64,000 bases of DNA, taken from assembly GCF_009914755.1 (NCBI RefSeq), contig NC_060930.1; one strand, 5' to 3'. A model generated the notes under the pieces. The model saw only the letters and a list, made by a program, of their open reading frames with translations. It was not told the DNA's origin and ran no database searches. Shown in pieces: positions 19,370 through 21,879 of this stretch (the first letter of the stretch is position 1; every line of letters begins with the position of its first letter). The translations under genes were made by a program, and so were the position numbers. This DNA is from the human T2T-CHM13v2.0 reference genome, Homo sapiens.

Positions 19370-19478
19370 TTTTAGAATTAAGTTTCATAAGGGTAGGGAC
19401 CTATCTGTTTCTTCTCTCTATACTCAGTAACTAAAACAATGTCCACACACAGTAGGCATTCAATTAATACTTATTTTT
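19370..19478 (+). mobile_element. L2 3' end, the insertion target of the TTC22 retrocopy
   Basis: taagtttcataagggtagggacctatctgtt...cacacagtaggcattcaattaatactt matches the L2 3' terminal motif. Confidence 0.6.
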
Positions 19479-19497
19479 TAGAAATATTTTATTATTT

Positions 19498-19794
19498 GGG
19501 CGGGCGCAGTGGCTCACGCCTGTAATCCCAGCACATTGGGAGGCCTAGGCGGGTAGATCACAAGGTCAGGAGATCGAGACCATCCTGGCTAACACAGTGA
19601 AACCCTGTCTCTACTAAAAATGCAAAAAAATTAGCCAGGCACAGTGGCGGGCGCCTGTCGTCCCAGCTACTCGGGAGGCTGAAGCAGGAGAATGGCATGA
19701 ACCCGGGAGGCAGAGCTTGCAGTGAGCCGAGATCACGCCACTGCACTCCAGCCTGGGCGACAGAGTGAGACTCCGTCTCAAAAAAAAAAAAAAA
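19498..19794 (+). mobile_element. AluY SINE
   Basis: AluY diagnostics (ggagatcgagaccatcctggctaacac; gagcttgcagtgag), A tail, short imperfect TSD (tttattattt / tcattattt). Confidence 0.95.
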
Positions 19795-20189
19795 TCATTA
19801 TTTACTATTATGGTTAATTTTATTATTATCTATAATAATAACCACATCAACTACAGTGAAGGATTTCACTCTTGCCTCATACTTGCTGGCAAAATAATTA
19901 AGCCATTGAGACCAAGACTAGGAGCAGATTTGCCACTAGGTCATGTGAACTGTAGTAGAGTAAAGGAGGGGATGGGGGAACTCTTTAGCTCGCAGCAAAG
20001 TAAACTCAGAGCCCCAGGTCTGTGCTCCAAGCAAATGGGCTCTGTGGTGGTTTCAGAGGGCAGATCTGGGGCCAGTGCCAGAAGGTAGAGGGAGGTAGCT
20101 ATCACCTACATGTGTAACTTGCAGAGCTGAATGACTGCAGTGGACTGCCTCAAGAGACGGTTAGTTAATTAGAAAACATATCTAATAGT

Positions 20190-20650
20190 AGCAGTCAGCT
20201 ACTTATGAGCTCTTACTGTATGCTTGAAGCTGAGTTTATCATACAGAATCTAATTTAATTATCATAACAACTCTATTAGACATACTATCACCTCCAGTCT
20301 ACAGATGAAGAAACTGAGGCTCAAAATTTGGACAATAGTATTTTGCCAAAGGTCCCATAGCACATAAGTGGTGATGTGGGATTTGAACCAAGGCTGTCTG
20401 TGTTCAAAGCCAGAGCTCTGATCCACTATATTAAACAATCTCTACTGCCTTTCAGAAGCACCTCATATGTCCAAGGCACTGTGCTTCAGATGCTACCTCA
20501 CTGAGTCCACTGACAACATATTAAGGTGGATGTTATTGTCTACATCTTACAGATTTCGGAACTGAGGTTTGGAGGGATAAGTGGCTTGCTGCAAGTTCCA
20601 CAAGACAGAGAGGCCAGATTTCAACTCCAGTCAGTCTGACTCCACCCATG
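20190..20650 (-). mobile_element. Two MIR fragments inside the inferred retrocopy 3' region
   Basis: tacagatgaagaaactgaggctca...ggatttgaaccaaggc (about 20300-20400) and cttacagatttcggaactgaggtt...ccagatttcaactccag (about 20545-20640). Confidence 0.75.
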
Positions 20651-20750
20651 CCAATCCAGAAGAGGCTAGAGGCTCATTGACCAGGCATTCTAGAAGGGAT
20701 TCCTGCAGCGAGTGGAGGCTCCTTCATTCTTTCACTCAAAAACCTTACAG

Positions 20751-21027
20751 GGCCGGGCGTGGTGACTCACACCTGTAATCCCAGCACTTTGGGAAGCCGA
20801 GGTGGGAGGATTGCTTGAGCCTAAGAGCCTGAGACCAGCCCGGGCAACATAGTGAGACCCCATCTTTACAAACAAAAAATTTAGCCAGTCTTGGTGGTGT
20901 GCTCCTGTAGCCCAAGTTACTTGGGGGGCTGAAGCGGGAGGATCACTTTAGCTTAGGAGGTCTAGGCTGCAGTGAGCCATGATCAGGCTGCTGCACTCCA
21001 GTTGGGCAACAGAATGAGACCCTGTCA
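20751..21027 (+). mobile_element. AluJ SINE lacking a poly-A tail, fused directly to TTC22-derived sequence
   Basis: AluJ diagnostics (gggaggattgcttgagcc; gggcaacatagtgagacc). Ends ...gagaccctgtca and is followed immediately by TTC22 antisense sequence. Confidence 0.93.
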
Positions 21028-21879
21028 CGGCCCTTGTGCAGTATGTCTGCCAGTTGAGCTCTGGATCTTGTAGGACATTCAGGGCCATGTTGCAGGTTCC
21101 AGTGGCCATATCCTGCTTTCCTAAGTGGAATATTTTGGCCGGGTGATACAGGATGGGAGGTTGGTTCTTGGCGATCTCGAAGGCCTTGCCAAAGCAGTCC
21201 AGAGGGTCGGTCTCCGAGTACTCACAGTATGGATGCCCATGGTGGTGATGGATAAGGGGTCCTTCCTCTCCAGCAGCATTCTGTTGCAACACCAGGCCAG
21301 GGCTCGGTAGTGGGGGAGGTCCTCAGACTTGAGCACTTGCTGGAGCAGGGCCAGCATGCAGTTGAAGGTGGGCAGCCTTTTCTGCTTCTCTCTGCCCAGC
21401 TCCAGGAAGATACCATCTAGCCTGATGAAGAGCATTGCCATAGTGAAGTACCAGCCCCTTTTCTCTTCCATTTGGATCTGCTTCCCCCTTTGGCACCATC
21501 CTTCCACCTTCCTGAGAAAGCCCCTTTGGGCATATTGAGCCCAGCTCAGCTGAAGCTCAAGACCCCCGTGAACTGTTCTGCCATTATTATTCTTGCCAAC
21601 CTTGCTGTGCATTCAGAACGACTTGGGCTTCAATTAATATTTATTATTAAACACGTTACAAATAGTTTTTTTCCAATTTTTACATTACATTTTAACATTG
21701 TTAATTGGTACGTACTGAATTTATAGAAATTGTAAGTCAATGTGTTCTTTACACTTTTTAGTAAATATCTGTTTCTGAAAAACAGAAAAATCTCATTTCT
21801 GTTCTTAAGATTATTTGAGATTTTTACAATTTCAGTAGCATAACTAATGCTTCAGAGCCCTGGCTGGTGGAGGAGGGGT

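What the first reader, a model, noticed from the sequence alone, without database searches (positions are those of the whole stretch)
19459..21648. TSD-bounded retrocopy preserving an apparently non-canonical TTC22 transcript
Seen: the TTC22-homologous block is only 450 nt (21028-21477). A 20-bp direct repeat (ttcaattaatacttattttt at 19459-19478; ttcaattaatatttattatt at 21629-21648, followed by AA, i.e. TATT/AA, like an L1 endonuclease site) brackets a unit of about 2.15 kb that splits an L2 3' end. On the minus strand the unit reads: 150-nt non-TTC22 leader, TTC22 block, antisense AluJ, MIR-containing sequence, AATAAA (19488-19493), short A run. Known: L1-mediated retrotransposition copies spliced mRNA and creates TSDs. 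Inference: the whole unit, including the AluJ and MIRs, was imported from the TTC22 locus as one mRNA. It would be a fossil of an isoform with alternative first and last exons, much longer than a protein-homology call would show. The poly-A remnant is short, which is the weakest point.
Basis: partly seen in the sequence, partly recalled or inferred. Interest (0 to 1): 0.8.

Follow-up and report, generated by a model that had tools for sequence, protein, structure and literature searches.

The report
Full-length TTC22 retrocopy of alternative isoform
This is an old, dead, reverse-transcribed copy of a TTC22 messenger RNA that is about four times longer than its database annotation and records an alternative form of the gene, which makes it an ordinary processed pseudogene with a tidy history.

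Summary
The 18/20 direct repeat (19459-19478 / 21629-21648) brackets a minus-strand unit, 21628-19479. That unit is colinear with the TTC22 locus on chr1 (T2T C1:54668807-54664792, same strand), with five introns removed exactly at GT-AG borders.

- **Order of parts:** a 151-nt leader exon from TTC22 intron 1, then canonical exons 2-5, then a 1.24-kb terminal exon from intron 5.
- **Terminal exon:** it starts at an acceptor inside an antisense Alu and ends 9-16 nt after an AATAAA that the parent also has.
- **Borders:** homology to chr1 starts at the base next to one repeat copy and ends within about 6 nt of the other.
- **Later insertion:** the younger Alu (19498-19797, own 7-nt duplication) is absent from the parent.
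- **Decay:** a 1-nt deletion in exon 4 breaks the frame.
- **Age:** divergence of K2P 0.14 in the non-Alu part of the last exon suggests roughly 40-60 Myr.

The isoform is only partly new. Published variant tables place the terminal exon of RefSeq variant 2 (NM_017904) in the same Alu, 164 nt downstream of the retrocopy's acceptor. I could not establish whether the leader is a true first exon or a 5'-truncation point. RefSeq already lists the locus as a 534-bp TTC22 pseudogene. Low interest: an annotation refinement.

The parts
19459..19478 (.). Target-site duplication, the copy next to the 3' (poly-A) end of the insert
   Evidence: 18/20 identical to 21629-21648 (D6). 0 of 1000 shuffles reach this. 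It abuts the end of homology to chr1.
19479..19497 (-). Last 19 nt of the retro-copied terminal exon, with AATAAA at 19493-19488 and at most 6 A after it
   Evidence: Window 19497-19473 matches C1:54664816-54664792 at 92%. The parent carries the same AATAAA.
19498..19797 (+). Younger Alu inserted after retroposition. It has a 15-A tail and its own 7-nt target duplication ATTATTT (19491-19497 and 19798-19804)
   Evidence: The parent alignment is interrupted exactly here, with 7 nt of the parent (54664816-54664810) matched on both sides. The flanks can be read. Sub-threshold SRP matches lie on the + strand at 19499-19613 and 19634-19781.
19798..20750 (-). Non-Alu body of the terminal exon (derived from TTC22 intron 5). 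It carries two MIR-like dispersed repeats, roughly 20230-20440 and 20470-20650
   Evidence: It matches C1:54664810-54665752 over 1-954 of 955 nt at 83%. K2P is 0.140 over 925 aligned nt. Evidence for repeats: internal repeat D9 and dispersed hits. The name MIR is recalled.
20751..21025 (-). Start of the terminal exon: an old Alu lying antisense to the transcript. The exon begins at 21025
   Evidence: A single alignment runs from window 21026 to 19797 against C1:54666032-54664810. The parent acceptor reads gtttgttttgag|ACAG. SRP-like matches are on the + strand. K2P is 0.195.
21026..21477 (-). Canonical TTC22 exons 2-5: exon 2 at 21477-21422, exon 3 at 21421-21303, exon 4 at 21302-21185 (1-nt deletion, frameshift), exon 5 at 21184-21026
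   Evidence: The exon map comes from tblastn of TTC22 proteins P0003 and P0022 on chr1. Matches are 84-89% per exon. Junction coordinates are, frames, gaps.
21478..21628 (-). Non-canonical 5' leader exon, copied from TTC22 intron 1 (C1:54668807-54668655, 334 nt upstream of exon 2)
   Evidence: Identity is 92% over 139 aligned nt with 7 gap events. The parent donor reads GGAGGCCG|gtgggc. Homology starts at the first base after the duplication.
21629..21648 (.). Target-site duplication, the copy next to the 5' end of the insert. It is followed by AA on the + strand
   Evidence: (D6).

Best explanation
Window 21628-19479 (minus strand) is one L1-mediated processed pseudogene.

**Source RNA.** It was a spliced, polyadenylated TTC22 RNA made of three parts:
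- an exon inside intron 1 (the leader);
- canonical exons 2-5;
- a 1.24-kb alternative terminal exon in intron 5. This exon is entered through the acceptor that follows the T-run of an antisense Alu, 174 nt past exon 5. It ends at an intronic AATAAA poly(A) site.

**Insertion (inferred).** The L1 machinery nicked a T-rich site in the AT-rich tail of an old repeat on chr6, reverse-transcribed the RNA, and left a 15-20 bp target duplication.

**Afterwards.** The copy decayed: there is one frameshift in exon 4, divergence is 8-20% depending on the part, and the poly(A) tail is almost gone. A younger Alu later inserted 12 nt (window 19486-19497) from the copy's 3' end.

**Shown versus inferred.**
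- Shown: colinearity, precise intron loss, borders at the duplication, and absence of the younger Alu from the parent.
- Inferred: the L1 mechanism, the age of about 40-60 Myr, and germline expression of the isoform at that time.
For: 1. **One full-length partner.** Each part of the unit has a single full-length match in the genome, at the TTC22 locus, same strand and in order.
2. **Precise intron loss.** The five parent segments missing from the copy (334, 215, 635, 812 and 174 nt) each start with GT and end with AG.
3. **Exon identity.** Exons 2-5 are the canonical coding exons, from tblastn of 569-aa and 518-aa TTC22 proteins. The leader and terminal exon lie in introns 1 and 5.
4. **5' border.** Parent homology begins at window 21628, the base adjoining the duplication copy.
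5. **3' border.** Parent and copy share AATAAA. Homology stops 9-16 nt after it, at the other duplication copy.
6. **Duplication.** 18/20 identical; 0 of 1000 shuffles match it.
7. **Target site.** On the primed (+) strand it reads T-rich, then the nick, then AA. This fits the recalled L1 endonuclease preference TTTT/AA.
8. **Independent support for the terminal exon.** Published tables give NM_017904 c.1024C>T p.R342X at hg38 chr1:54785641 (passages seen). An anchor from NM_001114108 c.1550T>C gives an hg38-to-T2T offset of 119777. That offset places the Arg342 codon at C1:54665864, 4 nt into an exon starting at the acceptor ttttgtag|AGACGAGG in the same Alu. Only 2 sites in intron 5 have the required AG|NNNCGA form, and only this one gives that offset.
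9. **Single retrocopy.** TTC22 exons 2-5 match only chr1 and this locus; all 3 first-look candidates were scored.
Against: - **No clear poly(A) tail.** The 6 A at 19474-19479 overlap the duplication, and 5 of them match the parent's own TAAAAT.
- **Imperfect exon 5 junction.** The copy reads GCCGTG|ACAG where the parent predicts GCCAAG|ACAG. That needs two adjacent substitutions.
- **Gappy leader.** 7 gap events cover 22 columns.
- **Untested prediction.** Presence or absence at the orthologous site in other primates could not be checked.
- **No isoform evidence for the leader.** No present-day protein isoform starting in the leader exon appeared among the 120 listed of 377 TTC22 relatives.
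Confidence: 0.93

Rival explanations
1. The copy is 5'-truncated. The source RNA started at the canonical TTC22 promoter and exon 1. The leader is then an internal cassette exon, or part of a longer exon or retained stretch of intron 1, and not an alternative first exon.
For: - 5' truncation is common in L1-mediated copies (established knowledge).
- The parent has AG dinucleotides a few nt upstream of the homology border, for example aacag|CATAAATA, so an acceptor upstream cannot be excluded.
- No primate isoform starting in the leader was seen (120 of 377 listed).
Against: - There is no AG at the border itself (tatctggt|GCCC).
- As an internal exon, the leader would put stop codons in frame ahead of exon 2, giving a nonsense-bearing RNA.
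- The parent has an A/T-rich TATA-like stretch about 23-30 nt upstream of the border (read; weak evidence).
- The leader ends with an ATG in frame with exon 2 (MAPNGRP, then exon 2).
Confidence: 0.35
2. Only the annotated roughly 0.5 kb is TTC22-derived. On this view the old Alu, the MIR-bearing sequence and the leader are resident chr6 sequence, and the direct repeat is chance.
For: The RefSeq pseudogene span is only 20998..21531 (hub annotation). AT-rich 20-mers can repeat by chance.
Against: - Window 19796-20750 and the Alu align contiguously to TTC22 intron 5.
- The leader aligns to intron 1.
- 0 of 1000 shuffles reach the repeat.
- Homology borders coincide with the repeat copies.
Confidence: 0.01
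3. A DNA-level (segmental) duplication of part of the TTC22 locus, followed by deletions.
For: Intronic sequence (Alu, MIR) is present in the copy.
Against: The five missing segments coincide exactly with GT...AG introns. The copy ends just after a poly(A) signal and is flanked by a target duplication.
Confidence: 0.01
4. The source RNA was transcriptional noise: a one-off mis-spliced, prematurely polyadenylated RNA, not a regularly made isoform.
For: - The exact exon chain was not found in any source I could search.
- The acceptor differs from that of RefSeq variant 2.
Against: - All junctions are canonical.
- The same Alu still supplies the terminal exon of a curated RefSeq variant today.
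- The acceptor after the antisense T-run is a recognised class of Alu acceptor (passage citing Lev-Maor et al.).
Confidence: 0.15

Closest known systems
RefSeq pseudogene LOC100420742 (tetratricopeptide repeat domain 22 pseudogene), window 20998..21531
   Same: Same locus, strand and parent gene. It covers exons 2-5.
   Different: The annotated span is 534 bp. The retro-copied unit is 2150 bp (1850 bp without the later Alu).

The annotated span reaches 54 nt into the leader and 28 nt into the Alu exon. Those stretches resemble the non-canonical parent exons (local alignment scores 25 and 19). They do not resemble the end of canonical exon 1 or the start of exon 6 (score 6 each).
TTC22 transcript variant 2, NM_017904 (RefSeq)
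   Same: Exons 2-5 are followed by an alternative terminal exon in intron 5 that begins inside the same antisense Alu. It probably uses the same downstream sequence; its 3' end was not seen here.
   Different: Variant 2 includes exon 1: codon numbering puts 340 codons before the alternative exon. By my placement its acceptor is at C1:54665867, against 54666031 in the retrocopy's source, 164 nt apart. The predicted tails therefore differ: 32 residues against 94. I did not see the RefSeq record. The placement rests on two published variant coordinates.
Processed pseudogenes as records of past splice variants (Shemesh et al. 2006, PNAS 103:1364)
   Same: The idea is the same: a retrocopy preserves the exon chain of the RNA it came from, including variants not otherwise annotated.
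   Different: I saw this paper only as an entry in reference lists. It is not held, so its content is recalled. The present case is a single example.
Exonization of antisense Alu elements
   Same: The parent acceptor is the AG that follows the T-run (the reverse complement of the Alu A-tail). The exon begins ACAG. That matches the 'proximal AG' class described in the passage of PMC7275561 citing Lev-Maor et al..
   Different: Here the Alu supplies the start of a terminal, polyadenylated exon, not a cassette exon. Two different acceptors in one Alu are documented, one ancient and one current.

Membership tests
L1-mediated processed pseudogene (retrocopy) | Colinear match to the exons of a parent gene elsewhere, with introns removed exactly at splice sites | tested here: met
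   5 of 5 junctions correspond to GT...AG introns in the parent.
L1-mediated processed pseudogene (retrocopy) | Flanking target-site duplication that abuts the borders of homology | tested here: met
   18/20 identical. 0 of 1000 shuffles reach this. The borders can be read.
L1-mediated processed pseudogene (retrocopy) | The 3' end lies shortly after a polyadenylation signal and carries a poly(A) tail | tested here: inconclusive
   AATAAA is shared with the parent, and homology ends 9-16 nt later. Only 6 A or fewer remain, and they are ambiguous with the duplication.
L1-mediated processed pseudogene (retrocopy) | Target resembles the L1 endonuclease site (T-run, nick, AA) | tested here: met
   The + strand reads TTATTATT followed by AA at 21641-21650, and TTATTTTT at 19471-19478. 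The consensus itself is recalled.
L1-mediated processed pseudogene (retrocopy) | Empty orthologous site in species that diverged before the insertion | not testable with these tools
   No other primate genome is held.
Antisense-Alu-derived exon | The Alu lies antisense to the transcript, and the acceptor AG follows its T-run | tested here: met
   SRP-like matches are on the + strand while the transcript is on the - strand. The parent reads gtttgttttgag|ACAG.
Copy of RefSeq TTC22 variant 2 (NM_017904) | Same exon chain: exons 1-5, then a terminal exon starting where codon 342 is CGA | tested here: not met
   The retrocopy has the leader in place of exon 1, and its acceptor is 164 nt upstream of the one inferred for NM_017904. 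It shares the Alu and the exon body only.

The most novel reading that the evidence does not exclude
The retrocopy is a snapshot, roughly 50 Myr old, of two things:

- **Early use of the terminal exon.** The intron-5 Alu-borne terminal exon and poly(A) site of TTC22 were already in use soon after the Alu arrived. They were entered through a different acceptor from today's variant 2, so acceptor choice within one Alu has shifted over time.
- **A possible internal start site.** The germline may have used an unannotated start site in intron 1, in a MIR-like repeat. Its RNA would encode an N-terminally truncated TTC22 beginning MAPNGRP followed by exon 2. That start site may still be active.
Probability: 0.25. 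Interest if true: 0.35.

Novelty: already known. Interest (0 to 1): 0.2.

Why it matters
**Annotation.** The RefSeq pseudogene LOC100420742 covers about a quarter of the real retro-copied unit. The old Alu and the MIR-like repeats between 19798 and 21025 did not insert into chr6 on their own; they were carried in with the RNA. That matters for repeat-age and insertion-site statistics.

**Biology.** It is one more case of a processed pseudogene preserving an alternative isoform. It shows that the Alu-borne alternative 3' end of TTC22 is old. No new mechanism is involved.

Tried and rejected
- **Protein search with the parent Alu-exon tail** (94 aa), meant to find a database isoform. Among the 120 listed of 1690 hits I saw only Alu-riddled predicted proteins of one monkey assembly and no TTC22 isoform. 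Uninformative.
- **Protein search with a 378-aa TTC22 form**. The 120 listed of 377 included no primate isoform starting in the leader. The three oddly sized hits I read were unrelated to the leader.
- **Genome search with the left flank**, to test the L2 claim and the continuity of the empty site. It found only itself.
- **Literature.**
  - No paper holds two of TTC22 / 'variant 2' / FLJ20619 / TTC22v2 / LOC100420742.
  - The TTC22V1 papers (passages only) do not describe the structure of variant 2.
  - Shemesh et al. 2006 is not held.
- **Rejected readings:** chance repeat, DNA-level duplication, and a 0.5-kb-only retrocopy (see rivals).
- **Coding retrogene:** considered and dropped. There is a 1-nt deletion in exon 4. 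The absence of in-frame stops over about 150 codons is not significant by my rough estimate.

Full report
**What is in the sequence.**

The 20-nt direct repeat is real: 19459-19478 against 21629-21648, 18 of 20 identical (family D6). No shuffle of the two 81-nt border neighbourhoods, both about 75% A+T, reached 18/20 (0 of 1000). Between the copies, read on the minus strand, lie:

- a 151-nt leader (21628-21478);
- a 452-nt block (21477-21026);
- an old Alu antisense to that reading (21025-20751);
- about 950 nt that include two copies of a dispersed repeat (20750-19798);
- 19 nt carrying AATAAA (19493-19488), followed by at most six A.

Both Alus give sub-threshold signal-recognition-particle RNA matches on the + strand. 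That is tool evidence for 7SL-derived dimeric elements and for their orientation. Subfamilies were not tested.

**Origin of the unit.**

The window's own assembly could be searched.

- **Tail.** Window 19796-20750 (minus) has one full-length partner, C1:54664810-54665752, same strand, 83% identity. The other 14 non-self hits of 16 are short matches to the dispersed repeat.
- **Upstream part.** Window 21028-21660 matches five blocks on C1 between 54668798 and 54666209, in order and on the same strand, at 84-89%.
- **Old Alu.** Together with its downstream flank it matches C1:54665702-54666032.
- **Whole unit.** A local blastn against 40 kb of C1 gave a single alignment from window 21026 to 19797 (C1:54666032-54664810, 82.6%). 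After the young Alu it gave a 25-nt match, window 19497-19473 to C1:54664816-54664792.

**Which parts of TTC22.**

I mapped a 569-aa marmoset and a 518-aa human TTC22 protein (found) onto C1 by tblastn. I refined the exon borders by the GT-AG rule.

| Exon | C1 coordinates |
|---|---|
| 1 | ending near 54680818 |
| 2 | 54668320-54668265 |
| 3 | 54668049-54667934 |
| 4 | 54667298-54667180 |
| 5 | 54666367-54666206 |
| 6 | about 54662703-54662527 |
| 7 | about 54662005-54661469 |

The 452-nt block is therefore exons 2-5. The leader comes from intron 1 (C1:54668807-54668655), 334 nt upstream of exon 2. Everything after exon 5 comes from intron 5 (C1:54666031 to about 54664792).

**Splicing.**

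The five parent segments absent from the copy are 334, 215, 635, 812 and 174 nt long. Each begins with GT and ends with AG. The last acceptor reads gtttgttttgag|ACAG. It is the AG after the T-run that is the reverse complement of the Alu's A-tail. This is the class of acceptor described for antisense Alu exons (a passage of PMC7275561 citing Lev-Maor et al.).

One blemish remains. At the junction of exon 5 with the last exon the copy reads GCCGTG|ACAG, where the parent predicts GCCAAG|ACAG. That is two adjacent substitutions with no change in length. I leave it unexplained.

**Ends of the unit.**

- **5' end.** Parent and copy agree from GCCCAAGTCG onward. In the window this starts at 21628, the base next to the duplication copy. 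Upstream of it the two sequences are unrelated apart from a short A/T-rich word.
- **3' end.** Both carry AATAAA followed by ATAT(C/T)TCT. Homology then fades over the next 7 nt, where the duplication copy begins. The RNA therefore ended 9-16 nt after a poly(A) signal.
- **Tail.** No unambiguous poly(A) tail survives.
- **Target.** On the primed strand it reads a T-rich run followed by AA. This agrees with the recalled L1 endonuclease preference.

**The younger Alu.**

The parent has one copy of the 7-nt word ATTATTT at this point. The window has it on both sides of the Alu, at 19491-19497 and 19798-19804. This Alu entered the chr6 copy after retroposition and is not part of the fossil RNA.

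**State and age.**

Relative to the parent:

- exon 3 has a 3-nt gain;
- exon 4 has a 1-nt loss, which shifts the frame;
- exon 5 has a 3-nt loss;
- there is no in-frame stop in either reading segment.

K2P distances:

| Part | K2P |
|---|---|
| Leader | 0.085 |
| Exons 2-5 | 0.10-0.18 |
| Alu | 0.195 |
| Non-Alu last exon (925 nt) | 0.140 |

With recalled primate substitution rates, 0.14 between two neutrally evolving copies suggests roughly 40-60 Myr. That is after the old Alu had inserted into TTC22. This date is an inference.

**Is the isoform known?**

I could not see RefSeq or GENCODE models for TTC22. Two papers list NM_017904 c.1024C>T, p.Arg342Ter, at hg38 chr1:54785641, which is hg19 55251314 (table passages). 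A third lists NM_001114108 c.1550T>C, p.L517P, at hg19 55247076.

- Codon 517 lies at C1:54661627-54661625 and is CTG. This fixes the hg38-to-T2T offset at 119777.
- Exons 1-5 make 340 codons, so c.1024 is the fourth base of the next exon.
- Intron 5 has only two sites of the form AG|NNNCGA. The one at exon start 54665867 gives exactly that offset.

So the terminal exon of RefSeq variant 2 begins at ttttgtag|AGACGAGG in the same antisense Alu, 164 nt downstream of the acceptor used by the retrocopy's source RNA. It would add 32 residues, where the upstream acceptor would add 94. The alternative 3' end is thus a curated feature of the gene, and only the acceptor differs.

**The leader.**

I found nothing in the literature or the protein searches. 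In the parent, the leader's frame continuous with exon 2 reads a stop, then 16 further codons, then MAPNGRP. It could therefore serve as a 5'-UTR exon with its own start codon. As an internal exon it would introduce stops. That favours a first exon, but 5' truncation cannot be excluded.

**RefSeq pseudogene span.**

The annotated span 20998..21531 runs 54 nt into the leader and 28 nt into the Alu exon. Those stretches resemble the non-canonical parent exons, not canonical exon 1 or exon 6. This hints that the curators' reference already contained them. That is an inference.

**Verdict.**

This is an ordinary L1-mediated processed pseudogene, already annotated but over only a quarter of its length. 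It was derived from an alternative TTC22 RNA whose 3' exon survives today as RefSeq variant 2 with a shifted acceptor.

The concept of retrocopies as records of old splice variants is in print (Shemesh et al. 2006). I saw that paper only in reference lists, so its content is recalled.

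Noticed in passing
L020:864 (C1:54665864), parent locus: The stop-gain variant reported for NM_017904 (p.R342X, listed as rs2270002) falls in the Alu-derived terminal exon, 4 nt after its acceptor. 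It therefore affects only the Alu-tailed isoform 2, not the canonical protein.
   Followed up: partly
window 21026-21028: At the junction of exon 5 with the last exon the copy has GTG where the parent has AAG. These are two adjacent substitutions at a splice junction. It could be chance, or the ancestral parent sequence may have differed.
   Followed up: partly
L020:3807-3840 (C1:54668807-54668840), parent locus: An A/T-rich TATA-like stretch lies about 23-30 nt upstream of the point where the retrocopy's homology begins. The leader itself looks like part of a MIR-type repeat (recalled resemblance to the MIR core, also seen at window 20340-20400).
   Followed up: no
window 19200-19320: The left flank of the insertion site carries what looks like a fragment of L1 3' sequence (recalled resemblance). 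Next to it is the old repeat tail that was the insertion target. Neither was tested against a repeat library.
   Followed up: no
window 19632-19683 and 20882-20933: There are sub-threshold Rfam matches to mir-1268, and to mir-3135 at 19700-19759, inside the two Alus. These microRNA families are evidently Alu-derived, so the matches say nothing beyond 'Alu'.
   Followed up: no
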